NCBI GenBank assembly: GCA_000002445.1
Contig: AL929603.2
Location: forward strand, 672,001 to 736,000
Origin: Trypanosoma brucei
Lineage: Eukaryota
DNA length: 64,000 nucleotides
Direction of reading: 5' to 3'
Under the pieces are notes generated by a model. It saw only the letters and a list, made by a program, of their open reading frames with translations, did no database searches and had not been told where the DNA came from. The position numbers and the translations under genes are program-made. Below, in pieces: positions 40,309 through 48,602 of this stretch; the first letter of the stretch is position 1, and every line of letters starts with the position of its first letter.

Positions 40309-40979
40309 CTGCGGGGAGGTAAAGCAACATGGCGCTGAAAGGTGTGATGGGCAGGATAAAATATTGGGGGGCTTTGAAGGGGACGTAATTTGAGGTTATG
40401 TCATACGTCTGGCGTGGGTTGTTTCTGAGTTGATCGAACAGATCGTTGTTGCTACGCCAACTGCAGCCAATTGGTAGTGTTAGGGCAGACTCAAACGTAT
40501 ATACATATATACACTGATATAACTTTCCCGTGCTCGTTTCTCATGTTGCACGTGAGGAAGGGAGCGGAACCCTTCCTTGTGGTGACAGTTGGACTAGCCA
40601 TGGTCAGTTACCTCTGTTTGATGTTGCCGACATCTTTCACTTCAGGTATACAAACTTGTAGTGAACAGATGGGAAACAGTGGAGGTAACATCAGACAAAA
40701 AATGTGCTTGTACCAGTCATTTCTCTCACTTGAGCAACATTGTTATTTGACACGTTCTCAGTTTCGTATGCAACAGCAGAAAGTTCAAACATCCCGCTAT
40801 TACGTCTTTTTTTTTCCATCTGCTTCCGCTCTGCCTTGCATGTGCACACGTGCCTGGTCCCTCATACATCCACAAACATGCACACGAAGCGGCAAAGGGA
40901 AGGAAGAGGGGAGTATTTCTACTCGTTATTCTCCAGTAGCAGCCGTGACCAGCACCAGTCCTCCTTTTGCCGGCCTTTA

Positions 40980-41735
40980 ATGGTGCTACAGCATCTTGAA
41001 CTTCTTCGAAAGAAGCGTATTTTGCTCGCGTCTGCCTCACCGCGGCGCCTAGAAATACTTAAAATCATCGGACTTGATGTCCACGTATGTCCATCGGGTG
41101 TTGCAGAGGATTTACCAAAGAGTGAGTTCAAGTGCGGTGGGGATTACGCTCTCTGCACTGCAAAGCTGAAAGCTAAACACATAATTAGACAGAAAATGGA
41201 AGCGGCCAACAGTGGCAGTGGGAAAACGCAAAGTGGTTCACGCAGTCGCTTGCCGTTTGATGTGCTCATTGCGGCTGATACCGTTTCGACGATGCCCGCT
41301 CACGAGGGCGACGGTACAATCGACATCATTGAGAAACCTTCGACCCGCGAGGAGGCGGCCGCCACGATGCGACGGTTGTCTGGAAACTCACATGAGATGT
41401 GGACCGGCGTCGCCATTGCTGTGGTGTGCGGAAAGAACTCCACAGATGACGATGGAGGCGTCGGGGACAACTGTGAGGAGTTGATACGTTGGTTTGAGTT
41501 GAAGGTGTGCACCACCGTGCACTTCGCGGTGTTGTCGGAAGCTGAAATATTGGCTTACACCAGCTGCCCAGATAACTGGGCTGGTAAGGCGGCGGGTTAT
41601 GGTATTCAGGGTATCGCTGCCTGCATGATCCGCTCTATAGAGGGAGATTACTACAATGTTATGGGGCTTCCGCTTCAGGCTGTGTGTGCTTTGTTTGACA
41701 AACTCATCGATGAGGGGATAATTTCACACAATTAG
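40980..41735 (+). CDS. Maf-like nucleoside-triphosphate pyrophosphatase (Maf/septum-formation family)
   Basis: 'ILLASASPRRLEILKIIGL', 'LIAADTVS', 'EKPSTREEAAATMRRLSGNSHEMWTGVAI' and 'GKAAGYGIQGIAACMIRSIEGDYYNVMGLPL' match the Maf signature. Track ORF begins at TTG 40740 and runs through a polypyrimidine tract. I chose the ATG at 40980 (MVLQHLELL...); an earlier ATG at ~40878 is possible. Confidence 0.7.
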   Translation: MVLQHLELLRKKRILLASASPRRLEILKIIGLDVHVCPSGVAEDLPKSEFKCGGDYALCTAKLKAKHIIRQKMEAANSGSGKTQSGSRSRLPFDVLIAADTVSTMPAHEGDGTIDIIEKPSTREEAAATMRRLSGNSHEMWTGVAIAVVCGKNSTDDDGGVGDNCEELIRWFELKVCTTVHFAVLSEAEILAYTSCPDNWAGKAAGYGIQGIAACMIRSIEGDYYNVMGLPLQAVCALFDKLIDEGIISHN

Positions 41736-42201
41736 TGGAGCTAGCACGATGGCACATATTTGCGGTATCCTTGTCAATGTGAAAGCAAAACACAGAAAGA
41801 GAAGAGGAGATATGAAGAAGAACAGGAGGAGGGCGGCCTCTTCCAAAGGTTGGCACGCAAAGATATGCGTTTGGTTGCCTGGGCTGCTTCATGAATGTTC
41901 ACAAGGTGGGCTACAGGCATCGGGTGCAATATCCCATAAGTTCCCTCAACCCACTCCATCACAGTACCCAAACTTGCCCGTAACACCTCATGTTTTCCCC
42001 CCATTAGACGGGATATGCACATTTACATCCGTATATATATATATATACATATATATCCTTCTTATTGGTCTACGCAACGAATGTTTGTCGAAGCGAAGGG
42101 AAGGGAAACTGAAAAGGGGTACCAAGAGAGGTGGGAAACTAGTTAACTAGTGCTCTTTGGAGTGGGAGGAGGAGACAATCCAGGAAGGGATAGAGGGCTC
42201 G

Positions 42202-42222
42202 TTTTTTTCTTTTTCTTGTCAG
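42202..42222 (+). promoter_or_regulatory. polypyrimidine tract plus AG dinucleotide immediately upstream of the EFR3-like start
   Basis: 'gtttttttctttttcttgtcAG' lies 15 nt before ATG 42237. It sits inside the ORF-track N-terminal extension, which argues the extension is untranslated. Confidence 0.5.
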
Positions 42223-42236
42223 TGGTAGTAAGGGGA

Positions 42237-45203
42237 ATGGGATGTGCATGCATCCGCACGAAACCACCGCGGTTCAAGGGTTTTGTTGTTGACGCGTACC
42301 CAAGCGATAGAAAAAACGACAGCCCGGTGCAGGATACCCTCGGGAAACTGGAAAACTACGTGGCAAGCAACCCGGAGCGTATCCCACGCATATGCCGAAA
42401 GATATCCAAGCTCCTAGCACAGGATGAACGGCGAAAACACACGCAACGAATTCTCGTTGGGCTGAAAATGCTAAAAGAACTCATTGTGAACTCCAGTGAG
42501 GTGAGTGGATTTGTTCCCCACTCCATTGATATATGCGCCCGGCTGTTGAATCAACGGTACACGGCGGAAATACGCATTGCAGTGGCCGATGTGATTACAG
42601 CCCTGTGTTTCAAAGTTGTTGGTCACCACGATAGGGAACACTCATGCCATCTCCTTAACCACAGCAAAGACCGGCTCTTACCGCCGTTACTGCAGATGTG
42701 CATGGAGAGACTGACAGAGGTGCGCAAAAGTAGTGACGATTCAAAGGCAGAAGACGGTGGTGGTGGTTTTACCATGGAACTGATGCGCTGCCATCATGCG
42801 GGCGTCGTGGCACTGGGAAACCTTGCTTTTTGCCTGCAGGGTGCTCTTGCAAACAGTGTAAGAGGGGTGGAAACGGCCTTTTTGCTTAACCTTTTGCATG
42901 CGGTGTCTAATGGCGGCCCTGCGATGCAGGAGCAACAGTTCAACATGCTTCACGCACCCGATATGCATGAATTCAGCGCATCTACGAGTTACAATAGTAA
43001 CGGTGGCGCCGACGGGGGTCCATTCCGCAGTGTGTTGCTACCTGATGACAGAAATGAGTGCACAGCTGTGCGCATTGCCGCCGCTGCATGGGGAATTGGC
43101 GCTATTGCATCTTGTGTGCCGAGCGTCAATATACGTGCCTTCCTGCAGAGTGTTCAAAACTTTATCACCGTTCATCGTGTGTGGTCACCACCGCTCTTTC
43201 CCTGTGTTGTGTTCCGTTCGCTGACCCACGCGATGGAGCGCCGGCCACAGCGGCTTGGCTTCTGCGTATGCAAGTTTCTCCATGACTTCGGCAAAGAGAA
43301 GGCAGTGTCCACGAGCTCTGTAAGCAAGCGGGAAAGGGGAAAAGGGAAGAGAGGAATGATGGCTCAAAATACCGCAGGTGTGCTTTCAGGTGTCTTGCAG
43401 GCCTTGGTTGTGTGTGTGAGTGAAGTGCGAATGATTGGTCGAACACCACAAATTCTGATCGACGAGTGGCCAACTGACGCGGTGTTGATAGACTCGAGCC
43501 TTGTCGATGGGCCAGCAATGGAAATATTTGAATTACATCTCAAGTTGGTGTTGCGATTACTGCAGTGCGCATACAGGTGGCAAAACGCCCCTCAACTGCA
43601 CCAACTTCTGCTTAAACTTCTTTACTGCTTGCAGAGGGTGTTGTCGACCTCCACACAAGGCCCTGTGGTCACTGTGGCACTCCAAGCATTGGCGGAAGCG
43701 GCGTCATACATTCGGACAGTTCCGTTTGCCGACCGCAGCGAACTCTCCGCTGCCTCATTTATCGAGCCATACCTTCAAAGCAGTGGCAGCATGCGGCCAC
43801 ACATCGCACGGGTGCTTGCAGGGTTCCTTTCGGGTGCCCCTCCATCCGTTCATACGCCTCCGGACGAACTTGCGGGAGTTGTGAAGGGTCGGAAAGTGCG
43901 AGAGACGGCGGATTCATCCACTGAGCAACTGGAGGCGCACCAGTCGCCACTTTTGACAGACGGACGTGACGTCGCTACGGCTAAGGAATGGTTGCTCTCA
44001 GTTATTGGTAAAAGCAGGGATGACAATAGTGACGTCTCCGCAACGTGTGTTGTGGAAGTGGGGAGGGTTATGGGAGCCCTTCTGCAGGGGTGCGGAGCAG
44101 CAGAACTCAGTTTCGCGCTTGCGGTCGCTGATATGTTGCAGTCGTTTGCCTCAGACACTAAAAAAAATACGGATCTCCACGTGGCGTGGTCGCATCAGTC
44201 ACTCGTAATTCTTGTTAACTGCTCCATTTTTTGCGGTGCCCCGCAGTTATATCGGTATGCTACAGAACTTCTTGAGCAACGCCACAATGCCGGGGAGCTT
44301 TCCACACATTTTTGCCACAATACTGAAGGCGATACGATACGACTCATGCGTCCAAAGCATGGCAGCCAACAGGAAGGAGGACAAGCCAACTTACAGCCAC
44401 TACGCACACAACCGATGGATGAGCCACCGGTGACAATCCGCGTCGACATGGATGTTGTCATCAATATGGTTGCTGAATATGCAACTGAAGAACTAATGAG
44501 TGCGTTACGCTTCCCTCCGCAAGACAACAGGGCATCAAAAAAAAATACAACCGCAGTCGCGGATAGACTGAAGGCGGCGGTAGCAGACGCCTCCTCAGCC
44601 GTACGGCATTCTAAGCAGAGCGTTGAGCCACGACAACATCAACAAAAGGGCGGTCAATCTACGGTAACAGCGGGAGCACAGCGGGATGCATGGGTGTTTT
44701 ATCCCGGCATACTTGACGTACCAGCACCTGAAGCCGATGGCAAGAGTCAAGCAAGTGAGTGTGGTCCCAGACTCTCTGTGATAGTTGATAGTGAAAAGAT
44801 ACCTGCTCAGGATTCAGCTGAAACAACGCATGGTGTAGGCGGGCAACCGTTGTTTGTTCTGCCGGTACGGGAGCGTATTGCAGAACTGCTTGCAAGGCAT
44901 AATGTTGGGCCAACCACAACATTAATACCTCCGGGCTCCAATTTCACACCACTTCCCCTTCCGTTGGGTGTACGATCACTTCATGTGGACCCGACGGCTG
45001 ACGGCATGCCCGCTGAGGAGCCGGCCCCACAGTCCCGTGCCACTAACGAAAGGAGAGTAAAGCAACATGAATTCAGCAACGGCGGCTGGAAACGCCACAT
45101 GCCAACGAGTAGCAATGGTAGCAAAGTTGTCCACGGTGACAGTGCGGGGAGCGATGACGCTGACGGAGCGTCTTTCAGTTCAATTAGTGCGTCAAGTGTC
45201 TGA
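42237..45203 (+). CDS. EFR3-like protein (candidate plasma-membrane PI4-kinase scaffold) with an N-terminal dual-acylation motif
   Basis: Track ORF starts at GTG 42150. The first ATG, at 42237, gives 'MGCACIRTKPPRFKGFVVDAYPSD...', which parallels the human EFR3A N-terminus 'MPTRVCCCCSALRPRYKRLVDNIFPED'. The downstream match continues: 'LENYVASNPERIPRICRKISKLL' against 'LTFYAVSAPEKLDRIGSYLAERL'. A polypyrimidine tract and AG lie immediately upstream of 42237. Confidence 0.55.
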   Translation: MGCACIRTKPPRFKGFVVDAYPSDRKNDSPVQDTLGKLENYVASNPERIPRICRKISKLLAQDERRKHTQRILVGLKMLKELIVNSSEVSGFVPHSIDICARLLNQRYTAEIRIAVADVITALCFKVVGHHDREHSCHLLNHSKDRLLPPLLQMCMERLTEVRKSSDDSKAEDGGGGFTMELMRCHHAGVVALGNLAFCLQGALANSVRGVETAFLLNLLHAVSNGGPAMQEQQFNMLHAPDMHEFSASTSYNSNGGADGGPFRSVLLPDDRNECTAVRIAAAAWGIGAIASCVPSVNIRAFLQSVQNFITVHRVWSPPLFPCVVFRSLTHAMERRPQRLGFCVCKFLHDFGKEKAVSTSSVSKRERGKGKRGMMAQNTAGVLSGVLQALVVCVSEVRMIGRTPQILIDEWPTDAVLIDSSLVDGPAMEIFELHLKLVLRLLQCAYRWQNAPQLHQLLLKLLYCLQRVLSTSTQGPVVTVALQALAEAASYIRTVPFADRSELSAASFIEPYLQSSGSMRPHIARVLAGFLSGAPPSVHTPPDELAGVVKGRKVRETADSSTEQLEAHQSPLLTDGRDVATAKEWLLSVIGKSRDDNSDVSATCVVEVGRVMGALLQGCGAAELSFALAVADMLQSFASDTKKNTDLHVAWSHQSLVILVNCSIFCGAPQLYRYATELLEQRHNAGELSTHFCHNTEGDTIRLMRPKHGSQQEGGQANLQPLRTQPMDEPPVTIRVDMDVVINMVAEYATEELMSALRFPPQDNRASKKNTTAVADRLKAAVADASSAVRHSKQSVEPRQHQQKGGQSTVTAGAQRDAWVFYPGILDVPAPEADGKSQASECGPRLSVIVDSEKIPAQDSAETTHGVGGQPLFVLPVRERIAELLARHNVGPTTTLIPPGSNFTPLPLPLGVRSLHVDPTADGMPAEEPAPQSRATNERRVKQHEFSNGGWKRHMPTSSNGSKVVHGDSAGSDDADGASFSSISASSV

Positions 45204-45983
45204 TCCGTCAGAGCGCCTCGAAAAAAAAACTCAGGTGGGCGTCGTCTTTGTCAGTTGTTATTTCTGTTACTTTAATTTCTATCGTCAAACAGTGACAATC
45301 CCAATTCCTTTAGTCTGTGTGCCTTTATTTTCTTCCAGCTCGAACTACATGCACTTCCAAACAAGTAAATCTTGTTGCTGTGCAGTAAAGCGCCCGTGCT
45401 ATCCGATGCACGTGCTCGCAAGAGCTTTGCTTTTCGTGTTAGGGAATCGGCTCCCTGGTAAACACGTTAAATATATATATATATATATTTATATTAATAC
45501 ACATATTACCTCCCCTCCTACCTCTGCCAACGGCAAAAAGAAGTGTATAACGCGGTGTTTTTTCACGCTATTTATTATTTTTTTTCCCCCTTTCGGCACA
45601 AAGTATTTATTACACCTCTACTTTCTGTGCCTGTGCGATTTTCTCCTTTCTTTGTGTGCGTGTGCGTGGTGTTTCACCTTTTGGGTGCACTGCCCCTATG
45701 CCAGACACATGAACGAACACACAAACACACCACTGTCGATACGTGTTGCACAATGGCGTCCTTTGGGCACCAATTTCTTCTTACTTATTTATCACTTCTT
45801 CTCTTCATCATATCCCCCTTCTTTCGTTACCCGCATGTATTATTCATTAGGTTGATAAGGGGGGTTAGGGTTAGGTCGAAGGGGAAAAAAGAAAAAAAAA
45901 CGGTAGCTTTCAAAGGGGGAAACACTCAACGCCAGCAAACAAAGTTACACCAACAGCGAGCGAAACGGGTAAAGTGAAACATC

Positions 45984-48602
45984 ATGTCGTTGGGTACGCC
46001 ATGTGGGCCATTGGACGGCGAGAGGGCTTCCATCGATCTTCAGCACTGCAACGCGGACGGTGAGGCGGCGGCGCTGATTCAACCAACAGTGACGGAAGGC
46101 CTACCCGTCGCCTGCGCTTTCACAATAACAAACTATCGTTTTACTATACGCGAGTTACCCAGTAGCAACGAGAAGGATAAGGACGAACACGGCAAATGTG
46201 AAGGCCTTCACTTCTCCATGCCGTTGCTTTCAATTGAATCGTGGAGTGCACCGCGTGTGGCAATGACGGCGGCACTCCGCGCCGTGTTCCAGCAGGGCCG
46301 CGGGCAAACAATACCCGAGGCGGATACGGGCGTAGCGGAAGCGTCGGCAGCTTCCAAAGGGGGAGCGGAACTACCGGCGTACAAGCTGAAGATTTGCACA
46401 AAACATCTTTGGGATGTGGAGCTTCTGCTACAGGGAAAACGCATGGAGGGTACTGGAAGGAGTTTAGAGGCACTTCGCGTTGTCCAGCATCTGAAGGATA
46501 TGCCAGCCTTTGAACTCTATGCAAAGAGATACAAGGGCCGCCCTGAAGTTGAAGACCCAAGCGGCGATGCTGGACACAACCATGAAGGAGGCAGCGGCGG
46601 CAACGCGGATGAGGATCTTATCAATTCTGTTGAGTTTGGCTGGAACTTGTACAATGAGGACCGGGAACTGGAGCGGCAGTTGTGTCTTTCTCCGGGTAGT
46701 GAAATACCAAGCGTTAGCGATACACAACGGGCGGGGCCGATGCGAGACCTGCGCCCATGGTTTCGGCTTACGCGAGTTCAACAGCCGCTTAATAGGTACG
46801 GTAGGACACCAACGTATCCTTTCCGTATCGTAGTGCCCAATGCTGCCAGTGATGAACTGCTATTAGATGTTATGTCGGCCCGTTCACGCGCACGCATTCC
46901 GGCGGTGTCGTTTGTTTACCTCCGCAATGGCGCCGCATTAGCTCGTTGCTCACAGCCACTCACGCGCTCGTCGTTGATGCGCGCCGACGGCGAGTTGTGC
47001 AGCATGTTGACTAACGACTACACCGAACATAATGCTGCGCCCAATCAAGATATGAGCAAAACCCGTGCTGCTGCAGCAGCCGTGGTGGAAACTGTGGCAC
47101 AAACCTCCACAAAACCTCCGCCACCCCTATTCGACACGGACGTAGAAGAGGGGAAGACATCGGGAAAAGAAACTTGCGGTTCCTCCCCTGTTAATCAGCA
47201 GCAGGAGGATTTGCCACGGCGGCAGCGGACACTCGTAGTTATGGATTGTCGCCCGTATTCTGCAGCGCTGGGTAATGCTAACTTAGGTGGCGGATATGAA
47301 AACGGTTCCACGCACTACTTTTGTGACGTGAGGTTTGGTAACATTGAAAATATTCATGCCGTCAGTAAGTCCTTTGCAAAGTTGAAGGAGCTCATTCAGC
47401 GGTTCAGCGGAACGGAACCGAAAAGTGGCTTCCTTCAAAAGTTGCATGAAACCAAATGGCTCCAGCATATACAGAATGTGATGCAGTGCTCGAATAACAT
47501 TGCGGATTCGCTTGAGCGTGGTGAGTCTTGCCTCGTACATTGCACGGATGGCTGGGATCGCACCCCGCAGACTGTCGCGACCGCAATGCTCCTGTTGGAT
47601 CCTTTTTACAGAACCATTGTGGGGTTCTGTGTGTTAGTGGAAAAGGAATTTTGTTCGATGGGCCATAAGTTTGCTGAGCGTTGCAGTCACCAAGTGAAGG
47701 GAGACACGGTTTATGTCTTGGACCCTGGTGTTTCAGCGTCAGACACGGAAGCGCAACCTCCAAGCCAACAACAACATCAGCAGCAGCAGCAACTTCAGCC
47801 CTCACCCATCTTTGTGCAGTGGATGGATGTAGTGTTTCAAATTGTGAGGCAATTCCCGCGTCGCTTCGAATTCACCCCGCGGCTGCTGGAATATCTGAGC
47901 ACTGAGGTTTATGCCTGTCTTCATGGAACGTTTCTCTGCAACGGGGAAAAGGAACGAATGTTTGAGGGAGTTCGCTTGAACACAGCCTCCATATGGACTG
48001 ATATTGTGCGGACTGCATTGAGGGAACGGGAGGGAAAAGCACCGCTTTACTTTGTTAACCCCGCATATGACTCAGCGGCGGCGTGGGAATTCATATCAAA
48101 GAGGAAAGGATGTGGTATCAATCGCATCTCCCCCAATTGCAGTAGCAAGCGCATTGTATTTTGGGAATCCTTTTATTTGCGCCATGATGGTGACACCGGC
48201 AGCACCGAGTTGCTCGATGCATTGGCATACGAACACATGCACCAAAAAAGGGGTACCACAACACCTGTCGGAGTTAAGTTTCATGAGGAATGGGAAAAAT
48301 ATTTTAATGACCTCATCCGTGAGGCCTGTGAAGCCCGAAAACGGGAGGTGGTTGAAATGAGGAACCTTCAACAAAATCTCGAAGTGCAGCGCCCTCCCCA
48401 AGGCGTGGATTCAACTTCACGGTCAAGTGGTCCGAAAATGTGTCATTGGTGTCATAAAACTTTCGGTTTGCTTAGTAAATTCACTACTGTGCGGTGTAGT
48501 CACTGTGGACACATCCATTGTAGTGACTGTATGGAAACTGAAGTTAAGGGCAAAAAACTCTGCCGTAGTTGCTATAGTGCACACAAGTTAAATAGTGCAT
48601 AG
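45984..48602 (+). CDS. myotubularin-family phosphoinositide 3-phosphatase with a C-terminal FYVE-like zinc finger
   Basis: PH-GRAM region with 'FTITNYRFTI'. Active-site 'CLVHCTDGWDRTPQ' (CX5R). 'SMGHKFAERCSH' follows the myotubularin pattern. The C-terminal Cys/His cluster is 'CHWCHKTFGLL...RCSHCGHIHCSDC...CRSCY'. Confidence 0.75.
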   Translation: MSLGTPCGPLDGERASIDLQHCNADGEAAALIQPTVTEGLPVACAFTITNYRFTIRELPSSNEKDKDEHGKCEGLHFSMPLLSIESWSAPRVAMTAALRAVFQQGRGQTIPEADTGVAEASAASKGGAELPAYKLKICTKHLWDVELLLQGKRMEGTGRSLEALRVVQHLKDMPAFELYAKRYKGRPEVEDPSGDAGHNHEGGSGGNADEDLINSVEFGWNLYNEDRELERQLCLSPGSEIPSVSDTQRAGPMRDLRPWFRLTRVQQPLNRYGRTPTYPFRIVVPNAASDELLLDVMSARSRARIPAVSFVYLRNGAALARCSQPLTRSSLMRADGELCSMLTNDYTEHNAAPNQDMSKTRAAAAAVVETVAQTSTKPPPPLFDTDVEEGKTSGKETCGSSPVNQQQEDLPRRQRTLVVMDCRPYSAALGNANLGGGYENGSTHYFCDVRFGNIENIHAVSKSFAKLKELIQRFSGTEPKSGFLQKLHETKWLQHIQNVMQCSNNIADSLERGESCLVHCTDGWDRTPQTVATAMLLLDPFYRTIVGFCVLVEKEFCSMGHKFAERCSHQVKGDTVYVLDPGVSASDTEAQPPSQQQHQQQQQLQPSPIFVQWMDVVFQIVRQFPRRFEFTPRLLEYLSTEVYACLHGTFLCNGEKERMFEGVRLNTASIWTDIVRTALREREGKAPLYFVNPAYDSAAAWEFISKRKGCGINRISPNCSSKRIVFWESFYLRHDGDTGSTELLDALAYEHMHQKRGTTTPVGVKFHEEWEKYFNDLIREACEARKREVVEMRNLQQNLEVQRPPQGVDSTSRSSGPKMCHWCHKTFGLLSKFTTVRCSHCGHIHCSDCMETEVKGKKLCRSCYSAHKLNSA

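What the first reader, a model, noticed from the sequence alone, without database searches (positions are those of the whole stretch)
42150..45203. EFR3-like protein whose true N-terminus is an MGCAC dual-acylation motif hidden by a GTG-initiated ORF extension
The ORF track begins at a GTG (42150) and reads through a polypyrimidine tract and AG ('gtttttttctttttcttgtcAG', 42202-42222). The first ATG, at 42237, yields 'MGCACIRTKPPRFKGFVVDAYP'. Gly2 gives N-myristoylation, and Cys3 and Cys5 give palmitoylation. This is the classic kinetoplastid flagellar and plasma-membrane targeting signal, as in calflagins. The following ~120 aa parallel the EFR3A N-terminus, which is palmitoylated and anchors PI4KIIIalpha at the plasma membrane. 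That points to a membrane-anchored PI4K scaffold.
Basis: partly seen in the sequence, partly recalled or inferred. Interest (0 to 1): 0.55.

Follow-up and report, generated by a model that had tools for sequence, protein, structure and literature searches.

The report
Trypanosome EFR3 orthologue with lipid-anchor N-terminus

Summary
The GTG ORF (42150-45203), the polypyrimidine tract with its AG, the first ATG at 42237 and the MGCAC... product are all present. The window is T. brucei TREU927 chr1:672001-736000 and the gene is Tb927.1.3290.

The "hidden" N-terminus is an artefact of the ORF track. GenBank and UniProt (Q4GYP4) already start at 42237. Published spliced-leader mapping puts all five acceptor sites upstream of that ATG. 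The major site is AG 42092-93 (140 of 175 reads). No ATG lies in the 143-nt 5'UTR.

EFR3 homology is statistically solid. The single-sequence Pfam hit is sub-threshold. A profile of trypanosomatid orthologues recovers bona fide EFR3s from 1.84 billion proteins. hhalign gives 98.6% probability and E=1e-15 over 566 columns (aa 3-692).

Met-Gly plus a nearby Cys is conserved in nearly all Discoba homologues with a complete N-terminus. The T. brucei sequence fails the PROSITE myristoylation consensus, so dual acylation remains an inference.

TrypTag places this protein and PI4K-alpha at the flagellar pocket.

Verdict: an ordinary but uncharacterised orthologue, of modest interest.

The parts
42092..42093 (+). 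Major spliced-leader acceptor AG (140 of 175 mapped reads); the 5'UTR starts at 42094
   Evidence: Kolev 2010 suppl. file 20, chr1:714094, UTR 143 nt, 'ag'. The offset of 672000 was verified for all five sites.
42097..42098 (+). Second acceptor AG (21 of 175 reads; 5'UTR 138 nt)
42094..42236 (+). Major 5'UTR, 143 nt, with no ATG. It contains the GTG at 42150 and the whole supposed N-terminal extension.
42150..42236 (+). GTG-initiated 'extension' of the ORF track (29 codons). It is non-coding 5'UTR, not part of the protein.
   Evidence: Orthologues all begin at the aligned Met-Gly.
42202..42217 (+). 16-nt polypyrimidine tract, the longest in the intergenic region
42221..42228 (+). Two minor spliced-leader acceptors: AG 42221-22 (5 reads, UTR 14 nt) and AG 42227-28 (8 reads, UTR 8 nt)
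42237..45203 (+). CDS of Tb927.1.3290 (988 aa plus stop), the T. brucei EFR3 orthologue
   Evidence: Exact match to CAJ16540.1 / XP_001219027.1 / Q4GYP4. Homology.
42237..42251 (+). Met1-Gly2-Cys3-Ala4-Cys5: candidate N-myristoylation (Gly2) and S-palmitoylation (Cys3, Cys5) site, followed by the basic stretch R7, K9, R12, K14
   Evidence: Conservation. Acylation itself is inferred.
42243..44312 (+). EFR3-homologous alpha-solenoid (aa 3-692)
42372..42560 (+). Sub-threshold Pfam EFR3_ARM (PF21052) match, aa 46-108
   Evidence: 23 bits against gathering score 27.6, E 1e-4. All 10 orthologues match at E up to 1; best E 2.9e-5.
44316..45200 (+). Predicted disordered C-terminal tail (aa 694-988). 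By analogy this is the region that would bind a TTC7/Ypp1-type adaptor.
   Evidence: Mostly pLDDT below 50; AF2 also predicts helices at aa 738-791 with pLDDT about 60-87. The analogy comes from PMC11092606. Binding was not tested.
44865..44897 (+). Short helix (aa 877-887, RERIAELLARH): the most conserved island in the distal, poorly aligned part of the tail and a candidate partner-binding element
   Evidence: Its role is inferred.
45204..45722 (+). 3'UTR, with mapped polyadenylation sites at 45711, 45715, 45720 and 45722 (major)
   Evidence: Kolev 2010 suppl. file 21, checked

Best explanation
Window 42237-45203 encodes Tb927.1.3290, the Trypanosoma brucei orthologue of EFR3.

Shown:
- Translation starts at ATG 42237. 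The mRNA is trans-spliced mainly at AG 42092-93, which gives a 143-nt 5'UTR that carries no AUG.
- Residues 3-692 form an alpha-solenoid homologous along its whole length to animal and plant EFR3.
- The tail from residue 694 is predicted to be largely disordered.

Inferred:
- The flexible N-terminal peptide MGCACIRTKPPRFK attaches the rod to the inner leaflet of the surface membrane. Attachment would use S-palmitoylation of Cys3 and Cys5, probably primed by N-myristoylation of Gly2, and would be helped by the adjacent basic residues.
- The disordered tail, with a conserved helix at aa 877-887, recruits PI4K-alpha (Tb927.3.4020), directly or through a TTC7/Ypp1-like adaptor.
- PI4P would then be made at the flagellar pocket, the plasma-membrane domain where TrypTag lists both proteins.
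For: Identity and gene model:
- Exact match to the annotated 988-aa T. brucei TREU927 protein on chromosome 1.
- Five spliced-leader sites and four polyA sites for Tb927.1.3290 fit the window with one offset. All dinucleotides and UTR lengths match.
- No ATG lies between 42094 and 42236.

Homology:
- Pfam EFR3_ARM matches all 10 orthologues at E up to 1 (query 23 bits, below the gathering score; best E 2.9e-5).
- The orthologue profile, run against 1.84e9 proteins, returned 61 hits. Of the 20 tested on Pfam, 17 passed the EFR3_ARM gathering score, 12 of them at 75-149 bits together with PF21072.
- hhalign against 12 bona fide EFR3s gave 98.6% probability, E 1.1e-15 and 566 aligned columns covering aa 3-692.
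- The AF2 model is an alpha-solenoid.

Anchor:
- M1, G2 and C5 are invariant in 10 orthologues.
- MG plus Cys occurs in about 30 kinetoplastid or jakobid homologues.
- The Cys cluster aligns with the palmitoylated Cys cluster of metazoan EFR3 (PMC3518224 and PMC11092606).
- The L. major orthologue LmjF20.1490 scored 0.967 with Myristoylator.

Localisation and partner:
- TrypTag Fig. 5i source data list Tb927.1.3290 as flagellar pocket 'ring' and Tb927.3.4020 as flagellar pocket 'proximal'.
- Tb927.3.4020 is PI4K-alpha.
Against: - No direct evidence of acylation was found.
- MGCACIR fails PROSITE PS00008 (Ile6). The other Trypanosoma species fail it too (Pro7).
- The T. brucei protein is not in the Mills 2007 high-confidence list.
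- No hit was found in the T. cruzi or L. donovani myristoylome supplements (the L. donovani identifiers were guessed).
- A single-sequence Pfam search does not reach the gathering score.
- Foldseek does not separate Efr3 from other solenoids.
- A TTC7/Ypp1 orthologue in T. brucei was not looked for.
- The tail shows no recognisable similarity to the metazoan TTC7/FAM126-binding segment.
- T. brucei lacks the C-terminal Y-V-D-L-L end conserved in the other trypanosomatid orthologues.
- The TrypTag sub-patterns differ ('ring' against 'proximal'), and the tagged terminus is unknown to me.
Confidence: 0.7

Rival explanations
1. It is an EFR3 orthologue anchored by S-palmitoylation of Cys3 and Cys5 plus basic residues only, as in mammalian EFR3. 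Gly2 is not myristoylated in T. brucei.
For: - The T. brucei N-terminus fails PS00008 (Ile at position 6), as do the T. cruzi, T. grayi and T. conorhini sequences (Pro7).
- It is absent from the high-confidence T. brucei N-myristoylome prediction.
- It is not found in the T. cruzi myristoylome supplements.
- Metazoan EFR3 works with a Cys cluster and no Gly2.
Against: - Gly2 is invariant in all Trypanosoma and other kinetoplastid orthologues while positions 3-10 vary freely.
- Arg7 suits N-myristoyltransferase (own knowledge).
- PS00008 is a loose consensus with known exceptions (own knowledge).
- The orthologues outside the genus Trypanosoma that have the aligned N-terminus pass it.
Confidence: 0.22
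2. It is an EFR3-fold protein that has been repurposed. It would be a flagellar-pocket membrane scaffold acting independently of PI4K-alpha, for example in endocytosis or receptor organisation.
For: - The tail is not recognisably similar to the metazoan TTC7/FAM126-binding region.
- T. brucei has lost the conserved C-terminal motif.
- The TrypTag sub-patterns of the two proteins differ.
- EFR3 has reported functions beyond PI4KA in animals (PMC11941745).
Against: - The PI4KA-EFR3 module is conserved in yeast, animals and plants (PMC3518224; PMC11092606; Noack 2022 as cited).
- T. brucei retains PI4K-alpha, which is also listed at the flagellar pocket.
- EFR3 tails are poorly conserved even between yeast and human.
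Confidence: 0.1
3. Translation starts at GTG 42150, giving the 1017-aa product of the ORF track with no N-terminal acylation site.
For: - The GTG lies inside the major mRNA (5'UTR 42094-42236).
- Prokaryote-style gene callers produce this 1017-aa model (P0001, P0014, P0015).
Against: - The extension is a translated polypyrimidine tract (LVFFFFLSVVV) with no counterpart in any orthologue.
- About 7% of transcripts are spliced downstream of the GTG.
- The reference annotations of three Trypanozoon genomes use the ATG.
- Non-AUG initiation is not a normal feature of trypanosome mRNAs (own knowledge).
- The same artefact occurs in an ENA call of a Leishmaniinae orthologue, P0007.
Confidence: 0.02
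4. It is a generic HEAT/ARM solenoid whose resemblance to EFR3 is only compositional or fold-level.
For: - The Pfam single-sequence score is below the gathering threshold.
- Foldseek ranks importins above Efr3.
- PDB sequence searches with profiles find no Efr3.
Against: - Of the 20 hits of the orthologue profile tested on Pfam, 17 pass the EFR3_ARM gathering score, 1 is just below it, 2 matched no Pfam family, and none matched any other family.
- hhalign gives E 1.1e-15 and is collinear over 566 columns, starting at the N-terminal Cys cluster and the R-[FY]-K-x-[LF]-V...[YF]-P motif.
- Intermediate discoban sequences pass the gathering score, and the Andalucia protein is annotated as an EFR3 homologue.
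Confidence: 0.02

Closest known systems
Metazoan EFR3A/EFR3B (human EFR3A Q14156; Drosophila RBO/cmp44E)
   Same: - Collinear homology over the whole solenoid (hhalign 98.6%).
- An N-terminal Cys cluster is followed by R-[FY]-K-x-[LF]-V-x-x-[IVA]-[YF]-P and K-L-x-x-Y...P-E-[KR]-[LI]-[PD]-R-[IV].
- A disordered C-terminal tail is present.
- The metazoan protein is a peripheral plasma-membrane anchor for PI4KA (PMC3518224, PMC11092606).
   Different: - The trypanosome protein starts Met-Gly, a potential myristoylation site. It has 2 Cys rather than 3-4.
- It is about 170 aa longer, with a much longer tail (about 295 aa), largely predicted disordered.
- The tail is not recognisably similar to the TTC7/FAM126-binding helices (aa 724-787 of EFR3A).
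- FAM126 is reported as metazoan-only.
- TrypTag lists it at the flagellar pocket; whether it also covers the rest of the plasma membrane could not be checked.
Yeast Efr3 (crystal structure 4N5A)
   Different: Yeast Efr3 has no lipid anchor and binds membrane through a basic patch. Sequence similarity is too low for HMMER to detect.
Plant EFOPs (EFR3 OF PLANTS; Noack et al. 2022, PMC8774046, cited)
   Same: Plant-type sequences (P0065, whose cluster includes a Psidium guajava protein; P0066; P0068) were recovered by the trypanosomatid profile, and P0065 carries EFR3_ARM at 75 bits. They also have Cys residues just upstream of the conserved K-R-Y-K-K-L motif.
   Different: The plant N-terminus is longer (M..V.P.CG.LC.FCP) and has no Gly2. 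S-acylation of EFOPs is stated from my own knowledge of that paper and was not checked here.
Kinetoplastid N-terminally dual-acylated proteins (calflagins, HASPB, SMP-1/CAP5.5, PPEF)
   Same: They share a Met-Gly-Cys N-terminus. PPEF (MGCSTSK) and HASPB need Gly2 for subsequent palmitoylation and membrane targeting (PMC1885993).
   Different: - The proteins themselves are unrelated.
- Those proteins have Ser or Thr at position 6, whereas Tb927.1.3290 has Ile.
- Calflagins are flagellar-membrane proteins (own knowledge); the only TrypTag listing found for this protein is the flagellar pocket.

Membership tests
EFR3 family (Pfam PF21052 EFR3_ARM / PF21072 EFR3) | A single-sequence match to the Pfam family model above its gathering score | tested here: not met
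   EFR3_ARM scored 23 bits against a gathering score of 27.6 (E 1e-4), and PF21072 was not reported. All 10 orthologues match at E up to 1 (best E 2.9e-5). This reflects divergence rather than absence of homology; see the next row.
EFR3 family (Pfam PF21052 EFR3_ARM / PF21072 EFR3) | Statistically significant, collinear profile-level homology to bona fide members | tested here: met
   The orthologue profile found EFR3 proteins at library-wide E-values from 7e-11 to 8e-4. Of the 20 hits tested, 17 passed the EFR3_ARM gathering score, 12 of them at 75-149 bits with PF21072 above its cutoff. hhalign gave 98.6% probability, E 1.1e-15 and 566 columns, aa 3-692 against EFR3 5-646.
EFR3 family (Pfam PF21052 EFR3_ARM / PF21072 EFR3) | An extended ARM/HEAT alpha-solenoid rod of about 550-700 aa | tested here: met
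EFR3 family (Pfam PF21052 EFR3_ARM / PF21072 EFR3) | An N-terminal membrane-binding element (palmitoylated Cys cluster or basic patch) immediately before the conserved R-[FY]-K-x-[LF]-V motif | tested here: met
   The sequence element is present and aligns with the metazoan Cys cluster. The lipid modification itself was not tested.
EFR3 family (Pfam PF21052 EFR3_ARM / PF21072 EFR3) | A disordered C-terminal tail that binds TTC7/Ypp1 and thereby recruits PI4KA/Stt4 | not testable with these tools
   A largely disordered tail (aa 694-988, mostly pLDDT below 50) with a conserved helix at aa 877-887 exists. Binding and the presence of a TTC7 orthologue were not examined.
EFR3 family (Pfam PF21052 EFR3_ARM / PF21072 EFR3) | Plasma-membrane localisation together with PI4K-alpha | tested here: inconclusive
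   TrypTag Fig. 5i source data list Tb927.1.3290 as flagellar pocket 'ring' and PI4K-alpha Tb927.3.4020 as flagellar pocket 'proximal'. The organelle is the same but the sub-patterns differ. This is literature data rather than a direct co-localisation.
N-myristoylated and S-palmitoylated (dual-acylated) proteins | Gly at position 2 after the initiator Met | tested here: met
   The start codon is fixed by spliced-leader mapping and annotation. Gly2 is invariant in the orthologues.
N-myristoylated and S-palmitoylated (dual-acylated) proteins | The NMT consensus PROSITE PS00008: G-{EDRKHPFYW}-x(2)-[STAGCN]-{P} | tested here: not met
   GCACIR has Ile at the [STAGCN] position. The T. cruzi and T. 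grayi sequences (GNTCAP) have the forbidden Pro. More than 20 non-Trypanosoma homologues pass. Membership is therefore claimed only as probable.
N-myristoylated and S-palmitoylated (dual-acylated) proteins | Cys within a few residues of Gly2 | tested here: met
   Cys3 and Cys5 are present, and Cys5 is invariant in the 10 orthologues.
N-myristoylated and S-palmitoylated (dual-acylated) proteins | Experimental incorporation of myristate or palmitate | tested here: inconclusive
   No hit was found in the supplements of the T. cruzi or L. donovani (identifiers guessed) myristoylomes. The T. brucei lipidation proteome paper is not held. Absence from proteomic lists proves little for a protein that may be of low abundance.

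The most novel reading that the evidence does not exclude
In trypanosomes the EFR3-PI4K-alpha module would be confined to the flagellar pocket, the only site of endocytosis and exocytosis, rather than covering the whole plasma membrane. A myristoyl-plus-palmitoyl N-terminus would do the sorting. Tb927.1.3290 would then be the determinant that gives the pocket its own phosphoinositide identity. The MG-Cys N-terminus shared by kinetoplastids and the jakobid Andalucia would be an ancestral lipid anchor of EFR3, older than the metazoan Cys cluster.
Probability: 0.3. Interest if true: 0.55.

Novelty: new member of a known kind. Interest (0 to 1): 0.35.

Why it matters
EFR3 is the membrane anchor that decides where PI4K-alpha makes plasma-membrane PI4P. 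A 2020 review of the T. brucei phosphoinositide network lists PI4K-alpha but never mentions EFR3, TTC7 or Ypp1. The full-text searches I ran found no paper on a trypanosomatid EFR3.

Naming Tb927.1.3290 as the EFR3 orthologue turns a "hypothetical protein" into a testable component of pocket-membrane lipid signalling. Published localisation already places it and the kinase at the flagellar pocket.

The Cys-containing, apparently lipid-anchored N-terminus also appears in Discoba and plants. That is far wider than the "from Nematoda" origin stated in a recent EFR3 review.

This extends a well-known system by homology. It is not a new mechanism.

Tried and rejected
- PDB sequence searches with the single protein and with two profiles found no Efr3. 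Yeast Efr3 is too divergent, and the hits were designed or generic solenoids above E 1e-3.
- Foldseek against PDB gave generic solenoids, with Efr3 only at rank 39. I treated it as non-discriminating.
- The afdb50 library was unavailable.
- I hoped the Logan contigs carrying the gene were transcripts with a spliced leader. They are genomic contigs that break at a TA repeat and contain no SL sequence.
- The Nilsson 2010 spliced-leader-trapping supplements have no entry for the gene.
- Literature searches for Q4GYP4, Tb927.1.3290, the Leishmania identifiers, EFR3 with Trypanosoma and EFR3 with Leishmania found nothing relevant.
- The T. cruzi and L. donovani myristoylome supplements gave no hit.
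- The T. brucei lipidation paper is not held.
- I looked for a frameshifted copy of the conserved C-terminal Y-V-D-L-L motif downstream of the stop. None exists in any frame.
- GTG initiation and 'generic solenoid' were considered and rejected (see the rival explanations).


Full report
**1. Observation**

- The ORF listing gives a 1017-aa ORF at 42150..45203 (+) that starts at GTG.
- An in-frame TAA lies at 42144-46, and no ATG occurs until 42237.
- The stretch cgTTTTTTTCTTTTTCTTgtcAG occupies 42200-42222.
- ATG 42237 opens MGCACIRTKPPRFKGFVVDAYP.
- The product is 988 aa, not 989.

**2. Where the window comes from and what is already annotated**

The 988-aa translation is identical to CAJ16540.1 / XP_001219027.1 / UniProt Q4GYP4. 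That entry is "hypothetical protein, conserved" of T. brucei brucei TREU927, on a 1,064,672-bp record, which is chromosome 1. The T. b. gambiense and T. equiperdum entries are also 988 aa.

The 1017-aa GTG version exists only as prokaryote-style gene calls on Logan assemblies. The "hidden" N-terminus is therefore an artefact of the mechanical ORF track. The reference annotation already starts at MGCAC.

**3. The start codon, tested with published data**

The supplement of Mills et al. 2007 lists Tb927.1.3290 as the orthologue of LmjF20.1490, whose N-terminus is MGAANSCTCS ETKYRFKDFI. Kolev et al. 2010 (PMC2936537, suppl. file 20) give spliced-leader addition sites for Tb927.1.3290:

| chr1 position | Window position (first nt of the 5'UTR) | Reads | 5'UTR length (nt) | Dinucleotide |
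|---|---|---|---|---|
| 714080 | 42080 | 1 | 157 | cg |
| 714094 | 42094 | 140 | 143 | ag |
| 714099 | 42099 | 21 | 138 | ag |
| 714223 | 42223 | 5 | 14 | ag |
| 714229 | 42229 | 8 | 8 | ag |

With a single offset of 672000, all five dinucleotides and all five UTR lengths fit the window and point to ATG 42237. The four polyA sites (3'UTR 508-519 nt) fit the stop at 45203. This has four consequences.
- The window is chr1:672001-736000 and the gene is Tb927.1.3290.
- Every mapped acceptor lies upstream of ATG 42237.
- The major 143-nt UTR contains no ATG, so 42237 is the first AUG of every isoform.
It and the AG at 42227-28 account for 13 of 175 reads. The main acceptor is AG 42092-93, so GTG 42150 and the "extension" sit inside the main 5'UTR.

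All orthologues begin at the aligned Met-Gly. An ENA gene call of a Leishmaniinae orthologue (P0007) shows the same artefactual F/L/S-rich extension.

**4. EFR3 homology**

A single-sequence Pfam scan gives only EFR3_ARM at 23 bits, below the gathering score of 27.6 (E 1e-4, aa 46-108). All ten trypanosomatid orthologues match it at E up to 1.

I built a profile of the ten orthologues (A1) and ran it against 1.84 billion representative proteins. It returned 61 hits at E up to 1e-3.
- I ran Pfam on 20 of these hits. Seventeen pass the EFR3_ARM gathering score.
- Twelve of the 17 score 75-149 bits and also pass PF21072 (EFR3). These are the animal- and plant-type sequences.
- Five of the 17 are intermediates scoring 32-43 bits, among them a prokinetoplastid and a jakobid.
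- One further hit is just below threshold, and two matched no Pfam family. No tested hit matched any other family.

Profile-profile comparison of A1 with 12 bona fide EFR3s (A2) gives 98.6% probability and E 1.1e-15. It aligns 566 columns collinearly, T. brucei residues 3-692 against EFR3 residues 5-646. The alignment starts at the Cys cluster and the motif R-[FY]-K-x-[LF]-V-x-x-x-[YF]-P.

The AlphaFold model (pTM 0.63) is an all-helical solenoid to about residue 690. Behind it is a largely low-confidence tail; AF2 also places helices at aa 738-791.

**5. The N-terminal motif**

M1, G2, C5, R12, K14 and F16 are invariant in the ten orthologues while the residues between them vary. Met-Gly followed by 1-3 Cys recurs in nearly all kinetoplastid and jakobid homologues that have a complete N-terminus; P0028 has MG but no Cys before the motif. 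Examples:
- T. brucei: MGCACIRTK
- T. cruzi: MGNTCAPQK
- Leishmaniinae: MGASNSCTC
- Strigomonas: MGVPCSCSE
- Papus: MGCCCGKP
- Andalucia: MGAACSCQP

In the hhalign alignment the Cys positions coincide with the Cys cluster of metazoan EFR3 (MPTRVCCCCSALRPRYKRLV). That cluster is the palmitoylated membrane anchor (PMC3518224, PMC11092606).

There are caveats.
- GCACIR fails the PROSITE PS00008 consensus because of Ile at the [STAGCN] position.
- All Trypanosoma-genus sequences fail it, whereas more than 20 other homologues pass.
- The T. brucei protein is not in the Mills 2007 high-confidence list. The L. major orthologue is, with a score of 0.967.
- I found no proteomic evidence of acylation. 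The T. brucei study is not held.

Palmitoylation is therefore likely. Myristoylation is probable on evolutionary grounds but unproven.

**6. Localisation and partner**

The TrypTag source data for Fig. 5i cover the flagellar-pocket sub-compartments. They list Tb927.1.3290 under 'ring' and Tb927.3.4020 under 'proximal'. Tb927.3.4020 is PI4K-alpha, with localisation 'Cy/FP' in the Cestari and Stuart review table. That review never mentions EFR3, TTC7 or Ypp1.

The flagellar pocket is a plasma-membrane domain. The data are consistent with an EFR3-PI4K-alpha module there, but they are not a direct co-localisation or an interaction.

**7. Mechanism proposed**

- Shown: the gene model, the start codon, the solenoid and its homology, a largely disordered tail, and the conserved MG-Cys N-terminus.
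- Taken from the literature: pocket localisation of this protein and of PI4K-alpha.
- Inferred: lipidation of Gly2, Cys3 and Cys5 plus basic residues tethers the rod to the inner leaflet. The tail, whose most conserved distal island is the helix RERIAELLARH at aa 877-887, recruits PI4K-alpha through a TTC7/Ypp1-like adaptor. This follows the yeast and human precedent, in which a disordered EFR3 C-terminus folds on TTC7/Ypp1.

**8. Comparison and novelty**

This is a divergent member of a known family. One JGI record of a trypanosomatid orthologue and the Andalucia protein already carry the name EFR3.

New relative to the literature I could search:
- the explicit assignment for T. brucei;
- its link to the pocket localisation of PI4K-alpha;
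- the observation that lipid-anchor-type N-termini of EFR3 are widespread outside animals.

The MG variant is a modest variation on the known palmitoyl anchor.

The finding is ordinary in kind but useful. Interest 0.35.

Noticed in passing
window 45150-45203 (C-terminus of the CDS): The T. brucei protein ends ...SFSSISASSV. It lacks the C-terminal Y-[VIT]-x-[LV]-x end (for example YVDLL) conserved in all nine other trypanosomatid orthologues. No such motif is encoded in any frame downstream of the stop.
   Followed up: partly
P0007 (ENA gene call of a Leishmaniinae orthologue), residues 1-21: This call shows the same annotation artefact as the GTG extension. An F/L/S-rich extension (MSCCLRAAGFFISSLFFFLST) precedes the conserved MGASNSC. 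It looks like a translated pyrimidine-rich stretch upstream of the real start.
   Followed up: no
window 42034-42055: A TA-rich microsatellite (tatatatatatatatacatatatat) lies in the intergenic region. The Logan genomic contigs L002 and L003 both break there.
   Followed up: partly
window 45984-48602 (+): The downstream neighbour is a myotubularin-like phosphoinositide 3-phosphatase with a C-terminal FYVE-type finger (Pfam Myotub-related, 323 bits). It is Tb927.1.3300 by the Kolev coordinates. Two phosphoinositide-pathway genes are therefore adjacent in one polycistron, which is probably coincidence in a trypanosome.
   Followed up: partly
window 41067-41735 (+): The upstream neighbour is a Maf-like protein (Pfam Maf, 119 bits), most likely Tb927.1.3280. 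The mechanical ORF (40740-41735, TTG start) again over-extends its N-terminus.
   Followed up: no
N-termini of homologues P0002-P0005, P0024 and the window protein: All Trypanosoma-genus EFR3 N-termini (MGCACIR, MGNTCAP, MGNTCVP) violate the PROSITE myristoylation consensus, yet Gly2 is retained. The other kinetoplastid and discoban homologues that have the aligned N-terminus obey it. This is either a genus-specific relaxation or a loss of myristoylation.
   Followed up: partly
P0065, P0066, P0068 (plant-type sequences; P0065's cluster includes a Psidium guajava protein), P0043 (Andalucia godoyi): Cys-containing N-termini upstream of the conserved K-R-Y-K-K-L / R-Y-Q-R-L motif occur in plant and jakobid EFR3 homologues. 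A 2025 EFR3A review states that the Cys cluster starts from Nematoda (PMC11941745).
   Followed up: partly
TrypTag Fig. 5i source data (PMC9981465, suppl. file 15): Other chromosome-1 proteins in the flagellar-pocket 'ring' class include Tb927.1.2160 and Tb927.1.2260. In the Mills 2007 supplement (LmjF20.1230, SMP-1) both are orthologues of proteins predicted to be N-myristoylated. This hints that the 'ring' class is enriched in acylated proteins.
   Followed up: no
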